Source of the DNA: Bacillota bacterium
Lineage (GTDB): Bacteria > Bacillota > Halanaerobiia > Halanaerobiales > M55B127
DNA length: 46,006 bases
Direction: 5' to 3'
NCBI GenBank assembly: GCA_051745185.1
Contig: JBNJDV010000004.1
Coordinates: 1 to 46,006, forward strand
The translations under genes were made by a program, and so were the position numbers. Shown here piece by piece: positions 12,326 through 43,890 of this stretch. Below the pieces are notes generated by a model that was not told the DNA's origin, ran no database searches, and worked only from the letters and a program-made list of their open reading frames with translations. How positions within the stretch are numbered: the first letter of the stretch is position 1; every line of letters begins with the position of its first letter.

Positions 12326-12850
12326 ATGCAAAGCAATACTAATACAAAATATTTAATTCTAACCGGATTATTTGCAGCACTTACTGCAATTGGAGCTTAT
12401 ATTTATATCCCACTCCCAATTAGTCCTGTACCTATTACACTTCAAACGTTTTTCACATTAACTGCTGGAGGTATATTAGGGAAAAAATATGGATTTTTCT
12501 CACAGTTGATATATGTACTTCTCGGTGTGATTGGACTACCTGTCTTTGCAGGAGGTGCAGGGGGAATAGGAATTTTATTTGGACCAACCGGTGGGTTTAT
12601 TTTTGGATTTATAGCAGCCGGATATATTTCCGGAATGGGTAAAAAAAGCTTATTGAATAAACTGTTATACTTAGTTTTAGCTGTACTCTCAATTTATATT
12701 TTAGGAGTAACCGGATTAATGCTTGTAACAAAGGTTGGTATAATTCAAGCAATCACAATAGGAGTTACACCATTTATAATAGGCGACCTTATAAAAATCG
12801 TTCTGGCCGCCTATCTTTCAAATAAGTTGTCTAATTATGTGCAACTTTAA
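12326..12850 (+). CDS. bioY: Biotin transporter BioY (ECF S component)
   Basis: LTGLFAALTAIGAYIYIPL..PITLQTFF is the BioY signature. Start set to ATG at 12326 (GAAAGGAG SD). The 3' end overlaps the convergent gene by 20 nt. Confidence 0.85.
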   Translation: MQSNTNTKYLILTGLFAALTAIGAYIYIPLPISPVPITLQTFFTLTAGGILGKKYGFFSQLIYVLLGVIGLPVFAGGAGGIGILFGPTGGFIFGFIAAGYISGMGKKSLLNKLLYLVLAVLSIYILGVTGLMLVTKVGIIQAITIGVTPFIIGDLIKIVLAAYLSNKLSNYVQL

Positions 12851-13760
12851 TATTACCGGCAGAAGTTGAAATTTTAATATCAATTTTATTTTCAACTTCT
12901 CCGTAATTTTTTGATTGATATACATCATCATACAACTTAATCAAACCAATCTCATCAAAATTATTACTATTAATAACAGTATTAGTTTCAATTCTTAAAG
13001 CTGCTGTCGGTGGTACTATTAACTTTATGTTCCCAGCACCTGCAGATATTTCTGTTTTATTATCATAATCAGGATATCTAATATTCAGTTGTCCTAAACC
13101 TGCATCAATGTTAAGTTTATCAACCTTTAGTTCCTCAAGATTTAATAAAAGGTCTCCTGCCCCACCTTTGATGTTAATTTCTAAGGGAGTATCTTTAGTT
13201 AAATTTATATTCCAAATAGCTGAACCAGTTCCTACATTAACCTGTCTTGTTTGCCTTATTGAAAGGTCAGCCCTGTTATCTTTTTTATCATAATTTACTT
13301 CAGGCATTTTACCTCTGTAATCCAAGTCTAAATCAAATAAATCAATATCTCTATCAACACTATCAATATTTAATCTGTTTGCACCAAAGGTTAAATCAAC
13401 CCTGAAATTATCAATGTTTGGATCATACTCTCTGTTTTCTTGATAAACTCCTGAACGTGTCTCATCTCCAAAGTTGAAGACAAAAAAACCAGTATTAATT
13501 CCTCTAAGGGTCGATGTGGGCATAATTACTGCCCCAATAATTATAACAAATATTAATATTGGAACAACCCACCACAATTTAGATTTTTTCAAAATCAAGT
13601 TTAGGCCAAATAAGATTAATAAAACCGGCCAAAATCTTGTAATAAAATACCAGAGCCTAAAAGTTGCTATTCCTAAAGAATTTAATAAAAATAATAATCC
13701 AATACCAATTAAAATTAAACCTACTATATAAGCAGATCTGTTGTTATTTTCACTGCTCAT
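12831..13760 (-). CDS. LiaF-like / toastrack-domain membrane protein (cell-wall-active antibiotic response family)
   Basis: N-terminal multi-pass TM region followed by a beta-rich repetitive C-terminal domain (GGAGDLLLNL, DAGLGQLNIRY, SAGAGNIKLIV). It starts 1 nt after the PspC gene. Confidence 0.5.
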   Translation of the reverse strand: MSSENNNRSAYIVGLILIGIGLLFLLNSLGIATFRLWYFITRFWPVLLILFGLNLILKKSKLWWVVPILIFVIIIGAVIMPTSTLRGINTGFFVFNFGDETRSGVYQENREYDPNIDNFRVDLTFGANRLNIDSVDRDIDLFDLDLDYRGKMPEVNYDKKDNRADLSIRQTRQVNVGTGSAIWNINLTKDTPLEINIKGGAGDLLLNLEELKVDKLNIDAGLGQLNIRYPDYDNKTEISAGAGNIKLIVPPTAALRIETNTVINSNNFDEIGLIKLYDDVYQSKNYGEVENKIDIKISTSAGNIKVAHN

Positions 13761-14228
13761 CTAATTTTTAACCTCCCTGTATATCAAAACAACACCTAGT
13801 ATTATTAAAATAACAGGCCAAAATCTTCTCCAATAAAATCCGGGAATCCAGTTATCTAGAATAAAGAATATACCTAAAGCAACTAATATTAAGCCTAAAA
13901 TTCGTTTTCTTTGTTCTTTACTATGTTCTTTACTTTTTTTTTCAGTTTCAGGTGTTTCTTGCTCTGCTTTATATTCACCCTCTTCATCTTCTTGTTTATA
14001 ATCGACATCATATATGTCCTCTTCATTTCTTCTGTCATTTCCCACAGGTCTTTCCGGAATGATTATCCATGCAATAATATAGGCAATTACTCCTGCACCT
14101 TCAATTAATGCAAATAAAACAAATGCAAGTCTCACTAATGTAGTGTCAATCCCAAAGTATTCAGCTATTCCTCCACATACACCACCAATAATTTGATCCT
14201 TTCTTGAACGATATAATTTTTTATTCAT
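13761..14228 (-). CDS. PspC-domain membrane protein
   Basis: [33 protein letters not shown] is the PspC domain. An acidic linker and a second TM segment follow. Confidence 0.8.
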
Positions 14229-30431: not shown

Positions 30432-31052
30432 CTATTCTATTTCAACTATTCCCTTTTTGATACATTTGATTAAGGCTTGAGTTCGGTCATTGACAGCTAA
30501 TTTTTTCAAGATATTACTCACATGGTTTTTTACCGTTCTCTCACTAATTATTAAAGTATTTGCAATTTCTCTATTGCTTTTTCCTTTAGAAATTTGTCCC
30601 ATTACATCTAATTCTCTTTCAGTTAGATTATGAAACCTGTAATTTTTTGGTTTTTCTTCTACTTGCTTAAAAGTATCATTTTTTACATGCTTTTTTATTA
30701 GTTGATAGAAATAATTACAGTCTTTAGAAACTGATATAATTTGATCTATATTATTATTTACACGTTCATCTAAATTAACTTTATCGTTATCTAGTAAAAA
30801 TATTAGTATATTTTTTCTTTTTCTTTTAATTTTTGCTATTATTTTTATTAATTCTCGTTCATTAAGATTAAGTATATTGACTAATACAAGATCAGGATAA
30901 AACTTATTTAAGACAGATGAAACATGCTCAAACTGTGAAATTGAAAAAACTGATTTTACTTCTGTTTTTTCTTTCAGAAAATGGGATATAGTATCTTTAT
31001 ATAGTTTGTTTTTATCAAATATTAAGATTTTAATTTTATTCATATTTTTCAC
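30432..31052 (-). CDS. LuxR/NarL-type regulator with a degenerate (pseudo-)receiver domain
   Basis: C-terminal LTERELDVMGQISKGKSNREIANTLIISERTVKNHVSNILKKL is a LuxR HTH. The N-terminal receiver-like fold has DK instead of the acidic pair DD (ILIFDKN) and N at the phospho-acceptor position (PDLVLVNIL). Confidence 0.75.
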   Translation of the reverse strand: MKNMNKIKILIFDKNKLYKDTISHFLKEKTEVKSVFSISQFEHVSSVLNKFYPDLVLVNILNLNERELIKIIAKIKRKRKNILIFLLDNDKVNLDERVNNNIDQIISVSKDCNYFYQLIKKHVKNDTFKQVEEKPKNYRFHNLTERELDVMGQISKGKSNREIANTLIISERTVKNHVSNILKKLAVNDRTQALIKCIKKGIVEIE

Positions 31053-32800: not shown

Positions 32801-34126
32801 TTATTTATAACTTAAATTTCTTTTATCAAAATCCTCTTTTATACCGGCAAGTTTTGTTAAAAGAACTTTTTTTTCAACAGCTAAAATTTTAATTAAATTT
32901 TTAATGTAAGATATATCATTTTCCTTTAATCTGATCTCTAGTTCTTTTAATTTTGTCTCGTTTTCATTATTATAACCTTTTTTTACATACTGGTTTAGTT
33001 TAACTAATTCTTTTTCTAATAGACCTTTTTCTTTACACAAAATATTTAACTCGTCTTTATATATTTTTATCTTTTTCTTTAATAAAAAAAGTTCTTGATC
33101 TAAGTTTTCTATGTAATCAAACCCTTGTTTTTTTAATAACATTAACTTGTTATCTAATTGTTTGTTTTCTAGTTCAATATTATAATTACTATTAGTTAGA
33201 CTAATCTCTAATCCTAACTGAGCATCTTCAGGTTGGTTTTGGTAATAATTTATTACTTTGACTTGTGGTGATCTTTTCTTGTTGATATTTGTTTTTTGTA
33301 AATTATAAAGTTGCTTTTTATAATTCAAGATCCTTTCTTTGTTAAAAAATAAATTACTTAATACATAATATTTTATTTTTCCCCCATTAAATAGACCGGT
33401 TTTAAAGTATCGCAAACTGTTATTTTCAATTAATTTTCTGGTGTTATTAGAAATTGAACTCAGCTCTTTATCAATTTTTAATAACTCTAGCTTTGATTTT
33501 TCTAAATTAAGTTTTAATCTTTTATTATTGCTTCCAACTTCCTTATTCGCTTTCATTTTAGCATAAAATATCTGTTTATTTATATTATGCCTTTTAGAAT
33601 ATAACTTATATTTGTTCTTCACCTCTATATATCTGGCTAATTCTTTTAAGATTTTGATGAATTTTTTATACTTTAAATTTAATAGCTTCTCTTTATTTAA
33701 TGCTTTGTTTGTTTTTAACTGTAGATACTTTATTTTTTCATCATTAAATCTGGGAAAGATAACCTTATTCCCTTCAACACTAAAACTGTATTTATCAGTT
33801 ATCATACTTTGGTTTAATTCAAGCCTTATATTAATATCATTTTTATACTTACCGTTGGTTATTAGTTCAAAAGAAGTATTATTATCTTTATATACTAAAT
33901 TATTTTTTATATAAATATTTAGTTTGTTTTTTCTAAAAGTAGAACTGTTACTTTTGATCTCTTTGTCGATTTGATTCAGCTTGTTTTTAATACTAATTAT
34001 TTCTATATTACTTTCTATTAATTTTATAATTTTATCATATCTTTGATTAGTTTCCTTAGCATCTACATTAACTATAAATATTAATGGTATTATTAGAATC
34101 ACTATTATAATTTTTTTAAGCAACAA
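32801..34126 (-). CDS. Secreted Lys/Asn-rich coiled-coil protein; divergent TolC/OEP-like outer-membrane factor candidate
   Basis: Signal peptide MLLKKIIIVILIIPLIFIVNVDA. Long heptad-like helices alternate with short amphipathic beta-like stretches (SFELITNGKYKNDINIRLEL; QVKVINYYQ..AQLGLEISLTNSNY). At 441 aa it is TolC-sized. TTG start with a GGAGG SD. Confidence 0.5.
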   Translation of the reverse strand: MLLKKIIIVILIIPLIFIVNVDAKETNQRYDKIIKLIESNIEIISIKNKLNQIDKEIKSNSSTFRKNKLNIYIKNNLVYKDNNTSFELITNGKYKNDINIRLELNQSMITDKYSFSVEGNKVIFPRFNDEKIKYLQLKTNKALNKEKLLNLKYKKFIKILKELARYIEVKNKYKLYSKRHNINKQIFYAKMKANKEVGSNNKRLKLNLEKSKLELLKIDKELSSISNNTRKLIENNSLRYFKTGLFNGGKIKYYVLSNLFFNKERILNYKKQLYNLQKTNINKKRSPQVKVINYYQNQPEDAQLGLEISLTNSNYNIELENKQLDNKLMLLKKQGFDYIENLDQELFLLKKKIKIYKDELNILCKEKGLLEKELVKLNQYVKKGYNNENETKLKELEIRLKENDISYIKNLIKILAVEKKVLLTKLAGIKEDFDKRNLSYK

Positions 34127-34136
34127 TATTCCTCCG

Positions 34137-35147
34137 TTAATATAGCTCTGATTTGTATTTTAGATATGTATTATAATAATTTAGAATTATTTTTACCTTT
34201 TCATTTTTGAGTTTAGATATTTTTAAATCTTGTTTTAAAACACTTATTTTAGTATCTAGTCCTAAACTATATTCTTTTTTTACTGTACTTTTTTCTCTCT
34301 CAGCAATATCTAATCTTTTTTCCATAACTTCATATGATTTTTTAAAGTTTTCATTCAACAGCTTAAAATCATTATTAATTGCTTTTATGTTTGCCTTATA
34401 TATCTTTTTGTTGTTTTTGATTAATATTTTTTGTTTTTTAAGTTTATTAATATATTTTAAAGGCAAGTTACTAATACTGCCTTTTTTCAATTTTAAGTTT
34501 ATAAGTTTAGATCTCTTGTTTAATAGTTTAATATATATCTTGTTCTCATGATTTTTAACATCAATAATAATATCTGTTAATCTTTGTTCGATTTCATATC
34601 TATTATTTTCGTCTGTTATATTCAATCTGTTTTCCAATTTACCCTTATAATTATCTAAATTTGCTAGTTCCTTTTCAATATTTAGCTGCATCTTCTTAGT
34701 TGTATAAACTTGTCTTGTTAACTTTTCTTCTGTAATTAATCCTTTTTTCTTCTTTTTTTTGATCTCATTTAATATCATCTGTTCGAATTCTAACTGTTCT
34801 TTTAATATCTTTAATTTATATTTTGTTAATATAACCTTATGATATAAACTAAAAAGCGAATTAAAGTTTTGCATGATTAACTCTTTTAACTCATAATCAT
34901 TTTCTAAACTTTTAATCTCATAATTTAATATATCCAACTTGTTTTTTTGATCTAAGTCATTATACTTTTCTAGTTCGATATTGTTTTGCTTTACCTCATA
35001 TTGATTTAGTAATTTTTTATATGCCAAACTTTTTTTAGAGTATAGGTTAACCAAAGTTGAATAATTTATTTTTTCTGCTTCAATACCATTGGTAATGAAG
35101 ACAGTTAATAATATTAAAAACAACATTATATTCTTAAGTTTTTTCAA
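34137..35147 (-). CDS. Secreted coiled-coil protein; second TolC/OEP-like candidate (short)
   Basis: Signal peptide MKKLKNIMLFLILLTVFITNGIEA. An OEP-repeat-like pattern is present (INYSTLVNLYSKKSLAYKKLL...; KKGLITEEKLTRQVYTTKKMQLNIEKELANLDNYKGKLENRL). TTG start 12 nt after the buk stop. Confidence 0.5.
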   Translation of the reverse strand: MKKLKNIMLFLILLTVFITNGIEAEKINYSTLVNLYSKKSLAYKKLLNQYEVKQNNIELEKYNDLDQKNKLDILNYEIKSLENDYELKELIMQNFNSLFSLYHKVILTKYKLKILKEQLEFEQMILNEIKKKKKKGLITEEKLTRQVYTTKKMQLNIEKELANLDNYKGKLENRLNITDENNRYEIEQRLTDIIIDVKNHENKIYIKLLNKRSKLINLKLKKGSISNLPLKYINKLKKQKILIKNNKKIYKANIKAINNDFKLLNENFKKSYEVMEKRLDIAEREKSTVKKEYSLGLDTKISVLKQDLKISKLKNEKVKIILNYYNTYLKYKSELY

Positions 35148-36328: not shown

Positions 36329-37126
36329 TTAGACTTCTTCAAAAGATAATAAGCCGATCTTAATTGCTTTAATTACCAGTTCAATTTTAGAAGAAACATT
36401 TAATTTATTAAACAAGATTTTTTTATGGTATTTTACTGTGCTTTTACTAAGATGCATATCTTCAGCTAATGCTCTTTCTGTATATCCATTTGCTAATTTT
36501 TTTAAGATATACCTTTGATTATATGATAGATCATTAATCTTATCATCATTTTTTAACCTGTGCTTATTATTTGATTTTAAACTTATGTTACTTGAGAAGA
36601 GTTCCATCAAGTATATGATCTGCTCTGAAATTCCATCTTTGCTTATTAAGTTAATAAATCCATTGATTTCTTCATTGTTTTTAATTGGATATGCCAAACT
36701 ATACCAACTATTTAATGGTTTACAAAAATGGTGTCCGGGTAACATATAGACCGGTTTATTTATTTTAGCTGCTAGTTGTACTGCATTTGTTCCTGAATAT
36801 CTCTCTTTTAGCGAAGTCCCTATACTTATCCCCTTTGTTTTTAAATCATTTTTGAAATTTATATCACCCACCAGTTCTTCAATTGTTTTGTCTTTGTTGA
36901 CCAACAGTAGACAGTACTTTAATTTTATTGATTGTTTTAGTTTATCAGACATTTCTGCAAAAAGTTCTTTTGTCTCGATAGAGAACTCATCTAATTTATT
37001 TTGGTTATGAAAAAGTTTATCTTTTAATATGTATCTTTTTTTATTCTCCTTTAAACACCTTGACCAAGAAGATGTTACCTCTTCTTTTATTAATTTATAA
37101 TCAAAATACATATCCTCTATTTTCAT
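36329..37126 (-). CDS. LuxR-family transcriptional regulator with an uncharacterised N-terminal sensory domain
   Basis: C-terminal LSYNQRYILKKLANGYTERALAEDMHLSKSTVKYHKKILFNKL is a LuxR HTH. The N-terminal ~190 aa are unassigned, apart from an SWSRC motif near the start. Confidence 0.7.
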   Translation of the reverse strand: MKIEDMYFDYKLIKEEVTSSWSRCLKENKKRYILKDKLFHNQNKLDEFSIETKELFAEMSDKLKQSIKLKYCLLLVNKDKTIEELVGDINFKNDLKTKGISIGTSLKERYSGTNAVQLAAKINKPVYMLPGHHFCKPLNSWYSLAYPIKNNEEINGFINLISKDGISEQIIYLMELFSSNISLKSNNKHRLKNDDKINDLSYNQRYILKKLANGYTERALAEDMHLSKSTVKYHKKILFNKLNVSSKIELVIKAIKIGLLSFEEV

Positions 37127-37174: not shown

Positions 37175-38332
37175 TTATAAATTAGTGTTTAAAAAATCTA
37201 ACTTTTCTAGTATATAATATATGATCTTTCTTTTATCAACTACAATAGAAGCCTGTGTTAACATATTATTTCTATAAGCAACATATTTCCTTTTATCTCC
37301 TTTAGTTAAATAATTATTTATACTGGCCTTTATCTTATAAACATAATTTTTATTATCCATATTAGTAGCATCCCGGTCTATTTTCAAAACTTTACCTTCA
37401 GCAACACCATATTCTTTATACGGATAGGAACTAATTCTATATCTTATAAGATCATCTTTTTTAATTCTTAGTATATCTTTATTCTGTACTGCCAATTCAA
37501 CGATATATTTATTTTGTGAAGATGGAATAATTTTTAATACTTCCTTACCAGCTGGTATGTAATCACCTATATTATACTCTTTTATAAACTCAATTCGTCC
37601 AGCAATTGGAGCTTTTATCCTGTAATTCTTAAAATCGTTGTTTATACTTTCAATTTCCAATTTATCTTTATCAATTAGTTTTCTTTTTTCTATAATTCTA
37701 TTATCTATTTCTACTATTTTTTTATTAACCAGACTTTTTAATTCAAATTTAAGCTGGTTTAAGTTATCTTTTTTAGCTAAGTAGTCTATTTCAGTAATAC
37801 TTACATTCTTTAATTCCTTAAACTTCAATAATTCTTTTTCTTTTTTATCTATCTTCTTAACATAATAATTAGCTTTTTCTTCAAATGATTTCATTTCATT
37901 TTTTAGTAATTCAAACCTCTCATGAATCTTAAATCTATTTGACAATAAATATTGTTTAGTTTCTTTTAATTCATCAACATACTTCTTATTTGTTTTTATT
38001 CTCTCTTTTAAAAACTCTTTTCTTTTTAAAATATCTCCTTTTTTTATTTCAAATAATAGGTCTCCTTTATTAACTATCTTTTTTTTATCACTAACTATAT
38101 CTTTTAATCTACCACCTTTTATACTATATACGGTGCTTATATTATTTTGATACTTAATAATCCCGTTAGTTTTAATTATCACATCTAATTTACCATAAAA
38201 AACCCATAATAATGCTAACATGATTATAATTAAAACTATCAATATCAAAAATTTAATAAATACATATCTATTTGAATTTTTGTGGTATCTTTTCTTTCTC
38301 AGTTGTTCAATATCTAGATATTTTTTATTCAA
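37175..38332 (-). CDS. HlyD/CvaA-type membrane fusion (adaptor) protein
   Basis: N-terminal cytoplasmic stub, one TM segment (FIKFLILIVLIIIMLALLWVF), a lipoyl/barrel-sandwich start (GIIKYQNNISTVYSIKGGRLKDI), a long coiled coil and a beta-barrel end. The only available start is TTG at 38332 (GGGG SD, 7-nt spacer). Confidence 0.85.
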   Translation of the reverse strand: MNKKYLDIEQLRKKRYHKNSNRYVFIKFLILIVLIIIMLALLWVFYGKLDVIIKTNGIIKYQNNISTVYSIKGGRLKDIVSDKKKIVNKGDLLFEIKKGDILKRKEFLKERIKTNKKYVDELKETKQYLLSNRFKIHERFELLKNEMKSFEEKANYYVKKIDKKEKELLKFKELKNVSITEIDYLAKKDNLNQLKFELKSLVNKKIVEIDNRIIEKRKLIDKDKLEIESINNDFKNYRIKAPIAGRIEFIKEYNIGDYIPAGKEVLKIIPSSQNKYIVELAVQNKDILRIKKDDLIRYRISSYPYKEYGVAEGKVLKIDRDATNMDNKNYVYKIKASINNYLTKGDKRKYVAYRNNMLTQASIVVDKRKIIYYILEKLDFLNTNL

Positions 38333-38351: not shown

Positions 38352-40547
38352 TTATTTTTGTTTTTCCCATAAATTATAATATCTTTCTTTTTGATTTATT
38401 AACTTTTGATGAGTACCTTTCTCTAAAACCTTTCCATTTTCTATATAAAATATCTGGTCACAGTCTTTAACTGACTTTAGTCTATGAGCAACTATTATAA
38501 TCGTCTTATCACTAAATACTTGGTTTAGCATCTTATAAATATTTTTCTCAGAAGAATAATCTAGATTATTAGTGGCTTCATCTAATATTAGTACATCTGG
38601 TTTTTTTAATAGAGCCCTTGCTATAGCTATTCTCTGCTTTTGTCCACCTGATAGATTTTGACCTCGTTCTGTAACCACAGTATCATATCTGTTTGGTAGT
38701 TGATTGATATATTTATGTATTTGGCTTTTTTTACTAACCTCGATTATATCTTTAATAGAGTGTTTTTTGTTATCTAAACTTATATTTTCTTTAATACTTT
38801 TATTAAACAAGAATATATCTTGTGGTACATATCCTATTACATCTCTTAAGTTTTTTGAATTAATATCATCAATATTACTTCCATCAATTAATATTTCACC
38901 ACTATTTGCAGCATAATACTTCATTAACAGTTTAATTATTGTACTCTTCCCAGAACCGCTTTTCCCGACAATCGCCACCTTTTGTCCTGCTTTAATTTGA
39001 AATGATATCTTGTTTAAAACTTTTTTCCTCATATTATATATAAACTCTACCTCTTTAAACTCTATTAATCTTTTTACACCTTTTATTTTTAACTGACTAT
39101 CACTGATTTGAACGGGATTTAATACCATAATTTCTTTCAATCTTTCAACAGCTACCATTGCCTTCTGTATTTTCGGTTGTAGTTTGATTAAATTTTGTAG
39201 GGGGTTATAGAAATAGGCTAATAAGGCATTGAATGTTATAAGCTGTCCTACTGTTAAATTGCCATTAATAACCTGATAACCACCTGTCCACAAAATAATA
39301 ATCTCTCCAACAGCTGCTAATAAGTTATCTATTGAATTTTGTATGTTTTTAATGAAATTGGCCCTAAAAACTTCTTCAATAAAGTTTAAAAAACTTATCT
39401 CATTATTAAGATAGATATTATTTTCTTCATTCAATGCCTTAATTGTTTTTATGCCATCTACAGTTTCAACTAAACTACTCTGTAGCTTTGCTCCTTTTTC
39501 CATTTCTCTTTTTCTTACTGTACTATATTTATTTGCAAATATTAATACTAAGATTATATAGATTGGAATTAATATCACTGCTATTTTAAAAAGATAACTG
39601 CTTTGATAGTATAAAATAACTCCTCCACAAATAATTAGTAATGAATCGATCATAATTGAGATTGCTGCATTTGATAGAGCGTCTCTAATTTTTCCCGAAT
39701 CCTGTATTCTTGAAAGTATTTCTCCTATTTCTCTTTTATCATAAAATGATATAGGTAGTTTTAAAATATGGTCAATATAGTCTGTAATTAAATTAATATC
39801 AATTTGTTGGCTTAAATATAGTGTTAAGTGGTTTCTAAAAGCATCCATCATAACTTTTAATAAAGTAACAGCTAAAACACCTAAAGAAATTACATGCAAT
39901 GATTTTAAAAGTCCATTAACTAAAATATTATCAATTAGATATTTAAAATAAAACGAACCAGTAATTCCAAGAGCTGTATAAACCAATGAAGCAATAAAAA
40001 TCTGTGTTATCATTGATTTATTGGTTTTTAACTGTATTTTAATGAAATCGAAATTACTTATATTTTGATTGTTGATTCCTTTGTTATCAGTTGGATTAAA
40101 TATCAATAGAATGTTTGTCCATATTTTATTAAACTCTTTTTTGCTTATTAACTTTAGTCCGGTTTCCGGATCAAAGATTAGCAGTTTTTTGTTATATATT
40201 TTATAAACCACAATAAAATGAGCAATATTTCTCTTTATAACATGGGCTACCACTGGTGTTTTAAGATTCTGATTTAAATTATTAATTTTAGCTTTGACAC
40301 CTTTTGCATTCAACTTCAAACTTTCAGCTGCTTTTATTAAACCAAATGCAGAAGTCCCTTTTTGATTTGTACCAGCAATTTCTCTTATTCTGCTTATTGG
40401 GTAGTTAATTCCATACAAATTAGCTACTGTTGCCAAACAGGCTGCCCCACAATCACTATTATCTTTTTGTTTTATAAATTTACTTTTTTTAAAAACCTTT
40501 AATAGTATTAAGTACAGATTATCTATAATATTATGCATATTAACCAA
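38352..40547 (-). CDS. Peptidase-C39-containing ABC exporter (PCAT; CvaB/LagD/ComA type)
   Basis: The N-terminal C39 domain keeps its catalytic residues (QKDNSDCGAACL Cys; AHFIVVY His; FDPETG Asp). Six-TM domain, Walker A GKSGSGKST, LSGGQKQRIAIARA, LILDEATNNLD. Confidence 0.93.
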   Translation of the reverse strand: MVNMHNIIDNLYLILLKVFKKSKFIKQKDNSDCGAACLATVANLYGINYPISRIREIAGTNQKGTSAFGLIKAAESLKLNAKGVKAKINNLNQNLKTPVVAHVIKRNIAHFIVVYKIYNKKLLIFDPETGLKLISKKEFNKIWTNILLIFNPTDNKGINNQNISNFDFIKIQLKTNKSMITQIFIASLVYTALGITGSFYFKYLIDNILVNGLLKSLHVISLGVLAVTLLKVMMDAFRNHLTLYLSQQIDINLITDYIDHILKLPISFYDKREIGEILSRIQDSGKIRDALSNAAISIMIDSLLIICGGVILYYQSSYLFKIAVILIPIYIILVLIFANKYSTVRKREMEKGAKLQSSLVETVDGIKTIKALNEENNIYLNNEISFLNFIEEVFRANFIKNIQNSIDNLLAAVGEIIILWTGGYQVINGNLTVGQLITFNALLAYFYNPLQNLIKLQPKIQKAMVAVERLKEIMVLNPVQISDSQLKIKGVKRLIEFKEVEFIYNMRKKVLNKISFQIKAGQKVAIVGKSGSGKSTIIKLLMKYYAANSGEILIDGSNIDDINSKNLRDVIGYVPQDIFLFNKSIKENISLDNKKHSIKDIIEVSKKSQIHKYINQLPNRYDTVVTERGQNLSGGQKQRIAIARALLKKPDVLILDEATNNLDYSSEKNIYKMLNQVFSDKTIIIVAHRLKSVKDCDQIFYIENGKVLEKGTHQKLINQKERYYNLWEKQK

Positions 40548-40550
40548 TAC

Positions 40551-40682
40551 TTATTGCAATAAATGGTATGCGATCTGGCCGATCATAAAACCTAATATTA
40601 CCCCAGCTGCAGTTGTAAAAAATATACCCAATACCAAATTATGTCCGCTTACAGGTCCCTTTAATAATGATAATAATGTCAT
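40551..40682 (-). CDS. 43-aa hydrophobic peptide C: leaderless paralogue of peptide A's mature region (candidate immunity peptide or leaderless bacteriocin)
   Basis: MTLLSLLKGPVSGHNLVLGIFFTTAAGVILGFMIGQIAYHLLQ. ATG at 40682 with an AAGGAG SD and 9-nt spacer. The track's 71-aa version starts at an SD-less TTG. It ends 3 nt before the ABC gene start. Confidence 0.6.
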   Translation of the reverse strand: MTLLSLLKGPVSGHNLVLGIFFTTAAGVILGFMIGQIAYHLLQ

Positions 40683-40766
40683 TATAACATTCTCCTTATC
40701 CTTCAATAATATTTGCCTCCCTTTTTGGTAAGGGGAATAACATTTAAAGTTATTCCCCTTTATCAA

Positions 40767-40916
40767 CTATTCTCTAGCTGCTTTGTTGTAACCAACATAA
40801 GCACCAAGAGCAATTCCGCCTAAACCAGCTGCCAGGTAAATAACAGTTGCTGTTGTACTACTAACTACAAATCCACCGTCTATTTCCATTAATTCCTGTT
40901 GGGTTAAATCTCTAAT
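40767..40916 (-). CDS. Double-glycine-leader peptide B (49 codons if started at AUU; 40 if at the internal AUG at 40889)
   Basis: Hand translation: (I/M)RDLTQQELMEIDGG-FVVSSTTATVIYLAAGLGGIALGAYVGYNKAARE. GAGGTG SD at 40927..40922, 5 nt before ATT at 40916. There is an in-frame TGA at 40928..40926. Below the ORF-track cutoff. Confidence 0.65.
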   Translation of the reverse strand: MRDLTQQELMEIDGGFVVSSTTATVIYLAAGLGGIALGAYVGYNKAARE

Positions 40917-40935
40917 ACGTTCACCTCATTTCTAA

Positions 40936-41109
40936 TTACTGAGTAGAGTAATAATATGCTGCTCCAACTGCTAAACCTATTGCTATACCTGCAGAAGCAA
41001 CTCCAAAGGCTCCTAATACTAAAGCCGAACCAGAAACCGGTCCACCACCATTAATATCCATTAATTCTTGATTGGTTAAAACATGAGAGTTATTAGCTGT
41101 TAGTTCCAT
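40936..41109 (-). CDS. Double-glycine-leader peptide A (57 aa precursor, 35-aa predicted mature peptide)
   Basis: Hand translation: MELTANNSHVLTNQELMDINGG-GPVSGSALVLGAFGVASAGIAIGLAVGAAYYYSTQ. GGGGG SD at 41120..41116. The leader matches the L(-12) E(-8) L(-7) I(-4) G(-2) G(-1) consensus. Below the ORF-track cutoff. Confidence 0.8.
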   Translation of the reverse strand: MELTANNSHVLTNQELMDINGGGPVSGSALVLGAFGVASAGIAIGLAVGAAYYYSTQ

Positions 41110-41160
41110 TTAATTCCCCCTTAATAGATATTTCCCGGGATTTACTATTTTCAATATTAT

Positions 41161-41180
41161 CATATTTTTACATATTTTTC
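41161..41180. repeat. Tandem 10-bp direct repeat in the promoter region of the peptide operon
   Basis: The plus strand reads CATATTTTTA CATATTTTTC (minus strand GAAAAATATG TAAAAATATG). On the minus strand it sits immediately upstream of a TGaTAATAT extended -10-like element (41162..41154). Confidence 0.5.
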
Positions 41181-41288
41181 CACTACCTGAAAGTACCAAA
41201 TCTTACTATTTTAAGAAAATATAATGTTGGAATAATTACTCTCTAGTTGATAAAAATACCATTTTGTCAGTTTATAAGTTTTAACACA

Positions 41289-41327
41289 TAAAAAAACGGC
41301 TATATAAAATGATAAATTTTATATAGC
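41289..41327 (-). terminator. Intrinsic terminator of the DUF368 gene, insulating it from the peptide operon
   Basis: GGCTATATAAAAT (41297..41309) pairs with ATTTTATATAGCC (41315..41327) across a 5-nt loop. A 7-T run follows on the minus strand (41289..41295). Confidence 0.75.
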
Positions 41328-41362
41328 CTAATCCTAATCATATATTTATTTTTAAAATATTT

Positions 41363-42136
41363 TTAAGTATTCTCACCTATCAACTCTAATATTATAATAA
41401 TTACTGCTCCAACAAAAAAGGCAAAAATACCATTAATAATAAGTGCTGAAGGGAATACTGCAGCACTTGAACCTAATATTAAACCTGTTAGAACAGTCAT
41501 TACCTTTTTGTAATGATTTTTTAATAATAATGAAAATAAGTTAGCAAATACTAATAGACCTAAAACAACTCCAACTGCAAATACAATTAAAAATAGTATC
41601 TCTAAGTTATTAATTGCTGCTAATAAAGGGTGATAAACTCCCATTAAAACTAATATTGTACCACCACTTATTCCCGGTAATATCATTGCAATACTTCCAA
41701 CAAAACCTGCAATAAAATATAATAAATAACCGTTTAAATTTCCAAAGTTAACTTGAAATTCCATACTAAAAAATAATGCACCAGCAAAGGCTAATAATAA
41801 AAATAATAACTTTAAAAAATTAATATTTCCCATTTTTTTATATGTCGAGTGTGCAGAAGTTATTACTAAACCAAATAAAAAGTAGTTTAATAATAGAGGG
41901 TTACTTGCATATACATCAGTAATTACTGATGAACCTATATATACACCTAAAACAGCACCCAACCCAATAGGTATTAATCTCTTTAAGTTTATATTTTTGA
42001 TTGCAATAATTAATGTTTCATATATATTTAATACTAAAGCTATTGTACCACCACTAACACCGGGAAGGGTGTTCGCTAAACCGAAAGGTATAGATTTTAA
42101 AAATAATGATATAAAAGAATTATTATTGCCTGACAA
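41363..42136 (-). CDS. DUF368-family membrane protein (PopT-type undecaprenyl-phosphate translocase family)
   Basis: The LPGVSGGTIALVL and LPGISGGTILVLMG duplicated motifs are characteristic of DUF368. About 8 TM segments. Confidence 0.85.
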   Translation of the reverse strand: MSGNNNSFISLFLKSIPFGLANTLPGVSGGTIALVLNIYETLIIAIKNINLKRLIPIGLGAVLGVYIGSSVITDVYASNPLLLNYFLFGLVITSAHSTYKKMGNINFLKLLFLLLAFAGALFFSMEFQVNFGNLNGYLLYFIAGFVGSIAMILPGISGGTILVLMGVYHPLLAAINNLEILFLIVFAVGVVLGLLVFANLFSLLLKNHYKKVMTVLTGLILGSSAAVFPSALIINGIFAFFVGAVIIIILELIGENT

Positions 42137-42245: not shown

Positions 42246-42407
42246 TTATTCATCTTCATTATATGGTAAGAGCTTGATATCATCCTCATCTATCTTCTCA
42301 AGGTCAATATTATGCTTTTTTACAAAATGATAGGTTGCTTGTCCTGGTGCATGAGCTTCTACAATCTCCTCTATTCCTTCTTTTTCATATATAATTTTAT
42401 ATTTCAT
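42246..42407 (-). CDS. Small acidic hypothetical protein (53 aa)
   Basis: Hand translation: MKYKIIYEKEGIEEIVEAHAPGQATYHFVKKHNIDLEKIDEDDIKLLPYNEDE. GGAGGG SD 7 nt upstream and its own terminator. Below the ORF-track cutoff. Confidence 0.55.
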   Translation of the reverse strand: MKYKIIYEKEGIEEIVEAHAPGQATYHFVKKHNIDLEKIDEDDIKLLPYNEDE

Positions 42408-43272: not shown

Positions 43273-43890
43273 TTAATAATTACCTATAATCTTTCTATTT
43301 AATGCTTTTAAACAAGCTTTCCCAACTGCTAATGGTAAATCCTGGTTTATATATGTAGATCCTAATAATCTTTCTTTTGACCCATGTTCATTATATAAAC
43401 AAATTTGCACCACTACAATTTCATCTTTAATACCTGTTTTAAATATATTTTCTATTCTTAGTCTTCCAGGTAGTTGGAGATATTTTTCTAGGATTTCAAT
43501 CAAACCCTTTGCTGTTTTATAAATTATAGGTTCATCTGGGTTATCACTGCTCTTTCCTTCAAAAATGTTATCATTAATTCTTAATCTATAATGACAGACC
43601 GGATTATTATTTTCCTTAAATATTGAAATGATTTCTAAACGTTCAATATCATTATCCTTGCTGTTATGTTCAAACTGGGCTATACTTATTTTTTTATGAT
43701 CTATATCTTTATCTTCATTAACTAAAATAATGGTTTCAACATCCCTAACAATTCTTTTGGGATTCCTCTTTTTATCAGCTATAATATGTACTTCATCAAT
43801 CTCATCTTCACCGGTTATTTTACAAGAAATTATACCGTCCAATTTGTTAATCTTTTGAGTCAAATCATCGAACATACTCTCTACCCCCAT
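43273..43890 (-). CDS. Hypothetical protein (205 aa), no domain recognised
   Basis: Long ORF tightly packed between the HD-GYP gene (22-nt gap) and tatD (20-nt gap). No motif I can name. Confidence 0.55.
   Translation of the reverse strand: MGVESMFDDLTQKINKLDGIISCKITGEDEIDEVHIIADKKRNPKRIVRDVETIILVNEDKDIDHKKISIAQFEHNSKDNDIERLEIISIFKENNNPVCHYRLRINDNIFEGKSSDNPDEPIIYKTAKGLIEILEKYLQLPGRLRIENIFKTGIKDEIVVVQICLYNEHGSKERLLGSTYINQDLPLAVGKACLKALNRKIIGNY

What the first reader, a model, noticed from the sequence alone, without database searches (positions are those of the whole stretch)
40767..41109. Two unannotated double-glycine-leader precursor genes sharing an in-register glycine zipper
Both genes fall below the 60-aa ORF-track cutoff and appear only on hand translation of the minus strand. 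Peptide A is MELTANNSHVLTNQELMDINGG|GPVSGSALVLGAFGVASAGIAIGLAVGAAYYYSTQ. Peptide B is (M)RDLTQQELMEIDGG|FVVSSTTATVIYLAAGLGGIALGAYVGYNKAARE. Both leaders place L at -12, E at -8, L at -7, I at -4 and GG at -2/-1, the established recognition pattern for C39 peptidase domains. Counted from the predicted cleavage site, both mature peptides carry G19-x3-G23-x3-G27. GxxxG motifs are the hallmark helix-packing device of class IIb two-peptide bacteriocins. A is neutral and ends in an aromatic YYY patch. B ends in a charged NKAARE tail. This complementarity fits a two-peptide pore former.
Basis: partly seen in the sequence, partly recalled or inferred. Interest (0 to 1): 0.8.

Follow-up and report, generated by a model that had tools for sequence, protein, structure and literature searches.

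The report
Halophile two-peptide bacteriocin operon
The two small genes are real. They encode double-glycine-leader bacteriocin precursors of a known family, in an operon with their processing exporter, in an uncultured salt-loving anaerobe. The second gene starts at a rare AUU codon, and a third small gene, probably for immunity, is a leaderless copy of the first peptide.

Summary

Both score above the curated cutoff of NCBIfam TIGR03949 (class IIb bacteriocin, lactobin A/cerein 7B family), narrowly. A also passes Pfam PF10439. Downstream lie a PCAT1-like C39-peptidase ABC exporter, an HlyD adaptor and a LuxR-type regulator. The operon is syntenic in about 16 variants, all from uncultured Halanaerobiales. 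The mature peptides are under strong purifying selection (dN/dS 0.04-0.08).

Corrections:
- The genes are not unannotated. The public record of this contig holds A, B and a third gene, C.
- B has no canonical start codon. It starts at ATT, or ATC in some relatives, and at ATG only in one contig where A is not upstream.
- The shared glycine register is only marginally beyond chance (p about 0.05).

New here: gene C (40551..40706, 51 aa) aligns end to end with mature A and keeps the same glycines, but has no GG cleavage site. It is the likely immunity protein.

Verdict: an ordinary new member of a known kind, with two unusual details. Synergy between A and B is untested.

The parts
41298..41328 (-). 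Intrinsic terminator of the upstream polyprenyl-phosphate-transporter-like gene. It marks the 5' boundary of the bacteriocin transcription unit.
   Evidence: 13-pair stem followed by GTTTTTTTAT. A terminator with a different stem sequence sits at the same place in all 10 lineages aligned.
41154..41182 (-). Putative promoter: -35-like TGGAAA (41177..41182), 17-nt spacer, extended -10 TGaTAATAT (-10 hexamer 41154..41159).
   Evidence: the blocks AGTGGnAA and TG-n-TA(A/G/T)(T/A)AT are conserved in 10 lineages, and the hexamer varies only within TAnnAT. This is inferred. The generic promoter scan is uninformative in this AT-rich DNA (51 hits against 46.3 expected).
41133..41140 (-). Conserved palindrome TCCCGGGA, within ATCCCGGGAAATA, between the -10 hexamer and A's ribosome-binding site. 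Function unknown; it could be an operator or an anti-SD element.
   Evidence: identical in 9 of 10 lineages, and CTTGGG in L010; only a weak 4-pair UCCC/GGGA pairing with the SD, and no compensatory changes.
40936..41109 (-). Gene A: 57-aa precursor with a 22-aa GG leader and a 35-aa uncharged mature peptide (G1, G5, G11, G14, G19, G23, G27; C-terminal YYY).
   Evidence: 26 homologues have an invariant mature core L32-Y53 and no charged residue in the core. dN/dS is 0.08 for the mature part and 0.43 for the leader. AF2 gives a leader helix 13-20, a break at GGGP, and a helix 27-56 with mean pLDDT 87-88 over residues 31-50.
40767..40916 (-). Gene B: 49-aa precursor starting at ATT (40914..40916) after SD GAGGTG (40922..40927). 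15-aa GG leader and 34-aa mature peptide (G16, G18, G19, G23, G27; tail YNKAARE).
   Evidence: The start is ATT or ATC in all 15 distinct variants where B follows A. It is ATG at the same codon in L016, where A is not upstream. dN/dS is 0.04 for the mature part and 0.27 for the part of the leader upstream of the internal ATG. The 49-aa form is in the NCBI record.
40730..40760 (-). Stem-loop immediately after B's stop codon: 12-bp stem, 7-nt loop, no T-run. Possible attenuator or mRNA stabiliser.
   Evidence: -19 kcal/mol, z = -2.8. It is seen in the window and L001 lineages but absent from L002-L007.
40551..40706 (-). Gene C: 51-aa small membrane protein with a TTG start after GGGAGG. It is a leaderless paralogue of mature A and the candidate immunity protein.
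   Evidence: 35 of 35 residues align ungapped with mature A, 46% identity, E 1e-9; score 80 against 22.2 +/- 4.3 in shuffles, 0 of 3000 reaching it; hhalign 94.9%; it shares G1, G5, G11, G19, G23, G27 with A. It is present in every locus, with dN/dS 0.12. ATG replaces TTG in L011, L012 and L023. AF2 pLDDT is 84.8, with helices 2-15 and 19-50. No Pfam or NCBIfam family matches.
38352..40538 (-). Peptidase-C39 ABC exporter (PCAT), 728 aa from ATG 40538.
   Evidence: TIGR01193 634.8 bits; PF03412 1.2e-41; PCAT1 (4RY2/8VP3) E about 1e-184, with DCGAACL, AHF(I/V)V and DP motifs aligned. The 728-aa form is in the NCBI record.
37175..38332 (-). HlyD-family adaptor / accessory protein, 385 aa.
   Evidence: PF13437, 9.4e-17; the best NCBIfam hit is TIGR01843, the type I secretion HlyD adaptor (109 bits), ahead of TIGR01000, the bacteriocin accessory protein (66 bits). 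Both are below cutoff.
36329..37126 (-). One-component regulator, 265 aa: a DhaR-N-terminal-like sensor region plus a LuxR/GerE HTH. It is the last gene of the conserved block.
   Evidence: PF00196, 1.6e-12; residues 11-163 match DhaR 17-173. It is syntenic in all long loci.

Best explanation
This is a chromosomal class II, IIb-type bacteriocin operon of an uncultured Halanaerobiales bacterium.

Proposed mechanism: one promoter drives A, B, C, the PCAT exporter, the HlyD adaptor and a LuxR-type regulator. Pre-A and pre-B are recognised through the amphipathic helix of their leaders by the C39 domain of the exporter. They are cut after the GG motif and exported. The HlyD adaptor probably helps passage across the envelope of this two-membrane host. 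Each mature peptide is a single hydrophobic helix of about 30 residues with a G19-x3-G23-x3-G27 face. The peptides insert into the membranes of competing cells and permeabilise them, most likely as an A/B helix-helix pair.

B is initiated at a weak AUU (or AUC) codon 17-22 nt after A's stop. Its synthesis is therefore probably lower than A's and partly coupled to translation of A.

C arose by duplication of A and has lost the GG site. It probably stays in the producer's membrane and confers immunity.

Shown here: the gene structures, family membership, synteny, purifying selection, the start-codon pattern and the A-C paralogy.

Inferred: cleavage and export, antimicrobial activity, A/B synergy, C's role, and the consequence of the AUU start.
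For: Family membership:
- A and B score above the TIGR03949 cutoff, and all 10 B variants hit it.
- A scores above the PF10439 cutoff.

Export machinery:
- The exporter hits TIGR01193, and matches PCAT1 with the catalytic Cys, His and Asp motifs aligned.
- An HlyD adaptor follows it.

Operon structure and conservation:
- An upstream terminator and a conserved promoter block define a separate unit.
- The same order A-B-C-ABC-HlyD-GerE is found in every long locus, all from Halanaerobiales MAGs or metagenomes.

Selection:
- dN/dS is 0.08 (A mature), 0.04 (B mature) and 0.12 (C body). The leaders are 0.25-0.43.
- In A, the mature core is invariant while the leader varies.

Structure: AF2 predicts a leader helix, a break, and a long helix for pre-A. 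It predicts the same layout for C.

Start of B:
- GAGGTG-N5-ATT/ATC occurs in 15 of 15 variants that follow A. ATG sits at the same codon in L016.
- The internal Met is Leu in L011 and L012.
- In an E. coli reporter, AUU gave 6-8 times less expression than AUG or GUG (PMC3592434).

C as immunity protein:
- It occupies the immunity position directly after the two structural genes.
Against: - There are no activity, cleavage or expression data of any kind.
- The TIGR03949 scores exceed the cutoff by only 1-2 bits, and B is below the PF10439 cutoff (21.4 against 27.1).
- Class IIb peptides are described as made in about equal amounts (PMC2850506). A conserved AUU/AUC start on B points to unequal synthesis.
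- Mature A has no charged residue and B is only about +1, unlike the usually cationic class II peptides. This comparison rests on my general knowledge.
- The host is a diderm with an LPS outer membrane (PMC5007114). No outer-membrane channel gene lies in the window, so passage across producer and target outer membranes is unexplained.
- C's role rests on position, size and paralogy only.
- In L016 a B-C pair occurs with no A gene in the 103 nt upstream. A simple 'C mimics A' logic does not predict this.
Confidence: 0.72

Rival explanations
1. A and B are two independent one-peptide bacteriocins that share an exporter, as in multi-bacteriocin Blp-type loci. They are not an obligate two-peptide toxin.
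For: NCBI names A's homologues simply 'Blp family class II bacteriocin'. B's weak AUU/AUC start implies unequal amounts (PMC3592434). B occurs without an adjacent A in L016. The mature A-B similarity and shared glycine register are barely beyond chance.
Against: A and B are strictly adjacent, 17-22 nt apart, in 15 of 16 variants. Both carry the GxxxGxxxG face. Both hit the class IIb subfamily model. A single small immunity candidate follows the pair, as in true two-peptide systems (PMC2850506, PMC6957408).
Confidence: 0.2
2. C is not an immunity protein. It is a third functional peptide: either a leaderless partner of B or an atypical substrate cut after the conserved x-G before Pro18.
For: C keeps all of A's zipper glycines and the GP(V/I)SG N-terminal motif. 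Its predicted fold has the same helix-break-helix layout as pre-A. A B-C pair without an adjacent A exists in L016.
Against: Position -2 would be K, S, Q or R rather than Gly, and -8 and -12 are not E and L. From general knowledge, C39 domains require Gly at -2. C's N-terminus (MKDKEN) is charged and conserved, which fits a cytoplasmic anchor with the N-in, C-out topology shown for CbnZ (PMC6957408). No separate immunity gene would then remain in the conserved block.
Confidence: 0.12
3. The peptides are secreted GG-leader signals, such as quorum-sensing pheromones, or membrane peptides with a non-antimicrobial role.
For: GG leaders and PCAT exporters also serve pheromones such as ComC and BlpC (general knowledge; ComA is among the exporter's structural relatives). 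The locus has a regulator but no recognisable pheromone, kinase and response-regulator trio.
Against: The mature peptides are 34-35-residue, very hydrophobic, glycine-zipper helices with an almost invariant sequence. The match is to bacteriocin families, not to pheromone families. The regulator has no membrane sensor domain.
Confidence: 0.04
4. B is translated only from the internal ATG (40887..40889), giving the 40-aa MEIDGG... product. B would then be a decayed gene, and the upstream leader would be untranslated.
For: Most gene callers report the 39-40-aa form. No canonical start lies upstream.
Against: The upstream nine codons are conserved as protein: L-12, E-8 and L-7 are invariant and dN/dS is 0.27. 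A strong GAGGTG sits 5 nt before the ATT/ATC in all variants, with no conserved SD before the internal ATG. The internal Met is Leu (TTG or CTG) in L011 and L012. L016 has ATG exactly at the ATT position.
Confidence: 0.03

Closest known systems
Class IIb bacteriocins of the lactobin A / cerein 7B family (NCBIfam TIGR03949; Pfam PF10439 Bacteriocin_IIc), including streptococcal Blp peptides
   Same: GG leader with L-12, E-8, L-7, I-4. Glycine-rich hydrophobic mature peptide of about 35 aa. Paired adjacent genes next to a C39 ABC exporter. Both A and B score above the curated TIGR03949 cutoff.
   Different: The host is a halophilic, anaerobic, diderm Halanaerobiales lineage rather than lactic acid bacteria or Bacillus. 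Mature A is completely uncharged. B uses an AUU/AUC start. Scores are only just above cutoff.
Carnobacteriocin XY with its 42-aa immunity protein CbnZ; also BrcI, EnkIaz and AbpIM (PMC6957408)
   Same: Two structural genes are followed directly by a very small gene. C is predicted to have one long hydrophobic helix, like the one-TMD immunity protein CbnZ.
   Different: Here the small protein is a demonstrable paralogue of one of the toxin peptides. I found no report of this for the known immunity proteins. The literature search was not exhaustive, and their sequences were not compared here.
Lactococcin G and plantaricin EF/JK (archetypal class IIb; PMC2850506)
   Same: Operon logic: two precursors, an immunity gene, an ABC exporter and an accessory protein. 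GxxxG motifs are proposed to drive helix-helix pairing.
   Different: There is no significant sequence match. A matched the lactococcin G-alpha and G-beta family models only over its leader, below cutoff. The cationic tail that lactococcin G-alpha carries is absent from A.
PCAT1 of Clostridium thermocellum (PDB 4RY2, 8VP3) and ComA
   Same: The exporter aligns over its full length with PCAT1, with the catalytic Cys, His and Asp motifs conserved.
   Different: Different cargo. Here an HlyD adaptor gene follows the exporter directly.
Colicin V / class II microcin export (CvaB C39-ABC, CvaA HlyD adaptor, TolC) of Gram-negative bacteria
   Same: GG-leader peptide, C39 ABC exporter and HlyD adaptor in a two-membrane cell. 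The adaptor here scores better against the type I secretion HlyD model than against the Gram-positive accessory-protein model.
   Different: No TolC-like gene lies in the window. The peptides belong to a family known mainly from Gram-positive bacteria. This comparison rests on general knowledge and was not tested.

Membership tests
Class IIb (two-peptide) bacteriocin | [quoted passage not shown] | tested here: met
   A's stop and B's start are 19 nt apart on one strand, with no terminator between them. The adjacency is kept in 15 of 16 variants.
Class IIb (two-peptide) bacteriocin | Double-glycine-type leader of 15-30 residues, cleaved after GG | tested here: met
   The leaders are 22 aa (A) and 15 aa (B, counted from ATT), with L-12, E-8, L-7, I-4, G-2, G-1. 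Cleavage itself was not tested.
Class IIb (two-peptide) bacteriocin | Dedicated C39-peptidase ABC transporter plus accessory protein | tested here: met
   TIGR01193 at 634.8 bits against a cutoff of 523.85. PF03412. PCAT1 alignment with catalytic motifs. HlyD-family gene next to it.
Class IIb (two-peptide) bacteriocin | GxxxG (or AxxxA/SxxxS) motifs in both peptides | tested here: met
   G19-x3-G23-x3-G27 is present in A and B. The corresponding columns are invariant in both alignments.
Class IIb (two-peptide) bacteriocin | Immunity gene in the same operon | tested here: inconclusive
   Gene C is in the right place and of the right size and hydrophobicity (PMC6957408). It matches no immunity family, and its function is untested.
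Class IIb (two-peptide) bacteriocin | [quoted passage not shown] | not testable with these tools
   This needs synthetic or purified peptides. The AUU/AUC start of B hints at unequal synthesis.
NCBIfam TIGR03949 (lactobin A/cerein 7B subfamily) | Whole-protein HMM score at or above the curated cutoff of 21.5 bits | tested here: met
   A scores 23.7 bits and B 22.5 bits. 10 of 10 B variants match at E <= 0.01.
Pfam PF10439 Bacteriocin_IIc | Score at or above the gathering threshold of 27.1 bits | tested here: met
   A scores 34.2 bits, which meets it. B scores 21.4 bits, which does not.
Peptidase-containing ABC transporter (PCAT) with an active C39 domain | Catalytic Cys and His (plus Asp) present, as opposed to a degenerate C39-like domain | tested here: met
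   DCGAACL, AHFIVV and FDP align with the identical PCAT1 motifs. The residue roles come from general knowledge of PCAT1 and ComA.
C39 substrate (applied to gene C) | Gly at -2 and -1, hydrophobic residues at -4, -7 and -12, Glu at -8 | tested here: not met
   C has (K/S/Q/R)-G before Pro18, and T/S and N at the -8 and -12 equivalents. hhalign aligns C with A only over the mature part.

The most novel reading that the evidence does not exclude
The operon protects its producer by toxin mimicry. C is an uncleavable, membrane-retained duplicate of pre-A that keeps A's glycine-zipper face (G19, G23, G27). It takes A's place next to B, or caps A oligomers, to give a non-conducting complex. B's conserved AUU/AUC start ties B's synthesis to translation of A and keeps B limiting inside the producer. 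The complete lack of charge on A would be an adaptation to hypersaline habitats, where electrostatic attraction to membranes is screened.
Probability: 0.2. Interest if true: 0.6.

Novelty: new member of a known kind. Interest (0 to 1): 0.38.

Why it matters
Bacteriocins of halophilic anaerobes are almost unstudied. The only Halanaerobiales report found is an antiSMASH prediction in a genome announcement (PMC6376428). This locus gives a compact, conserved system from that group: three peptides, an exporter and an adaptor.

Three points can be tested directly:
- How a 'Gram-positive-type' class II bacteriocin is exported from, and acts on, two-membrane Firmicutes.
- Whether an uncharged glycine-zipper peptide is a salt-adapted membrane toxin.
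- Whether a leaderless duplicate of the toxin can serve as its antidote.

The conserved AUU/AUC start is also a practical warning. Standard gene callers truncate B to 40 aa and lose its leader, so genome mining will under-count such precursors.

Tried and rejected
No helix-helix model could be made.
- Generic sigma-70 scan: 51 hits against 46.3 expected in this AT-rich DNA, so it is uninformative. The promoter call rests on cross-lineage conservation instead.
- RNA element in the 5' UTR: Rfam found nothing in the whole window. RNAalifold gave only a 4-pair anti-SD pairing with no covariation. It is left as unexplained.
- Solved structures: there is no PDB relative of A.
- Wider family for C: phmmer against 1.84 billion representatives found one true relative. 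Two other hits look like unrelated, larger low-complexity proteins. There are no Pfam or NCBIfam hits. B versus C shows no detectable similarity.
- Literature precedent for an immunity protein paralogous to its bacteriocin: nothing relevant was found. This is not proof of absence.
- Rejected: B as a 40-aa product of the internal ATG (see rivals).
- Rejected: the 71-aa TTG ORF at 40766 as the true C. That region is not conserved and contains the post-B hairpin.
- Rejected: a mobile-element or plasmid origin. The flanks are core chromosomal genes and the synteny is fixed.

Full report
**1. What is in the sequence**

Gene B's reading frame opens right after a TGA and reads GERIRDLTQQELMEIDGGFVVSS...NKAARE, with a stop at 40767. 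The ORF lister reports only 40 aa, starting at the internal ATG. No ATG, GTG or TTG lies upstream in frame. The sole candidate start is ATT at 40914..40916, five bases after GAGGTG.

In both peptides the leader carries L-12, E-8, L-7, I-4, G-2 and G-1. Both mature peptides have Gly at positions 19, 23 and 27.

**2. Are they real genes?**

A search with A found 27 close relatives. An exact look-up and a search with B added more. Genome, metagenome and contig look-ups gave 29 loci, about 16 distinct variants, every named one an uncultured Halanaerobiales MAG.

All long loci share the order TatD - small ORF - (polyprenyl-phosphate-transporter-like gene in some) - A - B - C - C39-ABC - HlyD - GerE regulator - butyrate kinase.

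Nei-Gojobori estimates over 8-9 lineages give these dN/dS values:

| Region | dN/dS |
|---|---|
| Mature A | 0.08 |
| Mature B | 0.04 |
| Body of C | 0.12 |
| Leaders | 0.25-0.43 |

Variable sites are concentrated at third codon positions. In 26 A homologues the leader varies freely, while mature residues 32-53 are invariant. These are expressed, constrained coding genes.

**3. Family**

A scores 34.2 bits on PF10439 (cutoff 27.1). B scores 21.4 bits, below that cutoff. A and B both exceed the curated cutoff of TIGR03949, 'class IIb bacteriocin, lactobin A/cerein 7B family', at 23.7 and 22.5 bits against 21.5. All ten B variants hit the same model.

NCBI already names the homologues in a sister MAG 'Blp family class II bacteriocin' and 'class IIb bacteriocin, lactobin A/cerein 7B family'. 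The exact A (57 aa), B (49 aa, so an ATT start) and C (51 aa) are held as NCBI proteins on a 46006-base contig, which is this window. 'Unannotated' is therefore true only of a 60-aa ORF track.

**4. Machinery**

The 728-aa protein at 38352..40538 is a peptide cleavage/export ABC transporter. It scores 634.8 bits on TIGR01193 and matches PF03412, PF00664 and PF00005. It aligns over its full length with PCAT1 at E about 1e-184, and the DCGAACL, AHF(I/V)V and DP motifs are conserved.

The next gene is an HlyD-family adaptor. It resembles type I secretion adaptors (TIGR01843, 109 bits) more than the Gram-positive accessory protein (TIGR01000, 66 bits). Both scores are below cutoff.

The last gene of the block is a one-component regulator with a DhaR-like N-terminal region and a LuxR HTH.

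A clean intrinsic terminator at 41298..41328 ends the upstream gene. Between it and A, ten lineages share three blocks:
- a -35-like AGTGGnAA block;
- an extended -10 of the form TG-n-TAnnAT (41154..41159 in the window);
- an invariant ATCCCGGGAAATA block before the GGGGG ribosome-binding site.

The operon therefore has its own promoter. That is an inference from conservation. The generic promoter scan is uninformative here.

**5. The start of B**

In all 15 distinct variants where B follows A, the codon five bases after GAGGTG is ATT (12 variants) or ATC (3 variants). It is never ATG, GTG or TTG.

Four further observations fix this codon as the initiation site:
- The nine codons before the internal Met are conserved as protein, with L-12, E-8 and L-7 invariant (dN/dS 0.27).
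- The internal Met is Leu in two lineages.
- No conserved SD precedes the internal ATG.
- In the 520-nt contig L016, B has no A gene in the 103 nt upstream. There the same codon is ATG, behind AAGGAG.

The pattern suggests that the weak start is maintained when B lies downstream of A. In an E. coli reporter, AUU gave 6-8-fold less expression than AUG or GUG, and second cistrons are partly translated by re-initiating ribosomes (PMC3592434). My inference is that B is made in lower amounts than A and partly depends on translation of A.

This pattern also explains why most gene callers report a leaderless 40-aa B.

**6.

Directly after B lies gene C at 40551..40706. It has a TTG start after GGGAGG and is 51 aa long. 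The start is ATG at the same position in L011, L012 and L023. It is preceded in this lineage by a 12-bp hairpin.

Its last 35 residues align with mature A without a gap, from the first residue (GPVSG) to the last (Q):
- 46% identity, E 1e-9.
- Ungapped BLOSUM62 score of 80 against 22.2 +/- 4.3 for composition-preserving shuffles; none of 3000 reached it.
- hhalign probability 94.9%.

C keeps A's glycines at positions 1, 5, 11, 19, 23 and 27. Instead of a GG leader it has MKDKENVIMTLLSLLK. The residue before the conserved Gly-Pro is K, S, Q or R, and the -8 and -12 equivalents do not fit a C39 substrate.

AF2 predicts the same layout for pre-A and for C:
- Pre-A: helix 13-20, break, helix 27-56 (mean pLDDT 72.9).
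- C: helix 2-15, break at KGP, helix 19-50 (mean pLDDT 84.8).

C is present in every locus. It has no Pfam or NCBIfam family, and only one further relative among 1.84 billion representatives.

Its position and size match experimentally proven immunity proteins of two-peptide bacteriocins: CbnZ at 42 aa, BrcI 53, EnkIaz 52 and AbpIM 55. CbnZ has one transmembrane domain, as predicted for C (PMC6957408). Immunity is therefore the best reading. That the immunity candidate is a paralogue of the toxin is unusual. I found no precedent, but the search was limited.

**7. How strong is the 'in-register glycine zipper'?**

It is real, and it is conserved in all variants. As a coincidence test it is weak. 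P(at least 3 shared Gly positions) is 0.048, and an offset of -4 gives as many shared positions. Mature A versus mature B does not beat shuffles.

The A-B relationship is significant only when the leader is included. The zipper is best seen as the family's signature, inherited by A, B and C alike, and not as a special A-B match.

**8. Mechanism, with its status**

- Shown: gene structures, family membership, synteny, selection, the start-codon pattern and the A-C paralogy.
- Inferred from well-studied homologues (PMC2850506; PCAT1 structures): leader recognition and cleavage after GG by the C39 domain, ATP-driven export, insertion of the helical peptides into target membranes, and helix-helix packing through the glycine face.
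- Speculative: A/B synergy, immunity by C through mimicry, translational coupling of B to A, and lack of charge as an adaptation to salt.
- Open problem: Halanaerobiales have an LPS outer membrane (PMC5007114), and the window holds no TolC-like gene. How the peptides leave the producer and reach the inner membrane of targets is unknown.

**9. Verdict**

However, the object is a new member of a known, already HMM-recognised family, and it is annotated in the public record.

Its modest interest lies in four things: the host group, the uncharged peptide, the conserved non-canonical start of B, and the toxin-paralogous immunity candidate C.

Noticed in passing
window 41133..41140 (-), within 41126..41140: The palindrome TCCCGGGA (ATCCCGGGAAATA) lies between the putative -10 hexamer and A's ribosome-binding site. 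It is identical in 9 of 10 lineages, although the flanks are free to vary. It could be an operator for the LuxR-type regulator or a weak anti-SD element. No covariation supports an RNA structure.
   Followed up: partly
window 41363..42136 (-): A DUF368/VCA0040-like polyprenyl-phosphate transporter gene (PopT-like) sits directly upstream of the bacteriocin operon in the window and L001 lineages only. From memory, some class IIb bacteriocins (lactococcin G, enterocin 1071) use the undecaprenyl-pyrophosphate phosphatase UppP as receptor. A link to the same lipid-carrier cycle could be coincidence or related to a receptor or to immunity.
   Followed up: no
L016 1..520: A 520-nt metagenome contig carries B with a canonical ATG start and an AAGGAG SD. 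It has no A gene in the 103 nt upstream, and C follows B. Its C protein is identical to that of L022, which has the usual A-ATT-B arrangement. It may be a second, A-less copy or a deletion variant.
   Followed up: partly
window 40730..40760 (-): A 12-bp stem-loop (-19 kcal/mol, z -2.8) lies right after B's stop and has no T-run. It is seen in the window and L001 lineages but not in L002-L007. It may attenuate read-through into C and the exporter genes, or stabilise the A-B message.
   Followed up: partly
window 36329..37126 (-) and 30432..31052 (-): There are two GerE/LuxR-family regulators. The operon-linked one has a DhaR-N-terminal-like (GAF-type) sensor region in place of a receiver domain. 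The locus therefore lacks the peptide-pheromone, kinase and response-regulator control that is typical of class II bacteriocin loci.
   Followed up: partly
window 42246..42407 (-): A 53-aa acidic ORF (MKYKIIYEKEGIEE...) lies between TatD and the transporter-like gene. An ORF of 52-55 aa is called at the same place in every related locus. It has no family hit.
   Followed up: no
window 12831..14228 (-): Adjacent PspC-domain and LiaF-like genes, a cell-envelope stress module, lie about 27 kb from the bacteriocin operon. No link to it was examined.
   Followed up: no
window 32801..35147 (-) and 43273..43890 (-): Three sizeable ORFs of 441, 336 and 205 aa have no Pfam match at E <= 0.001. The 205-aa ORF is syntenic next to TatD in all related loci.
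   Followed up: no
window 40538..40547 (-): The mechanical ORF list starts the ABC exporter at TTG 40547 (731 aa). The public record and the homologues use ATG 40538 (728 aa). C's stop at 40551 then lies 10 nt before the exporter's start codon.
   Followed up: yes
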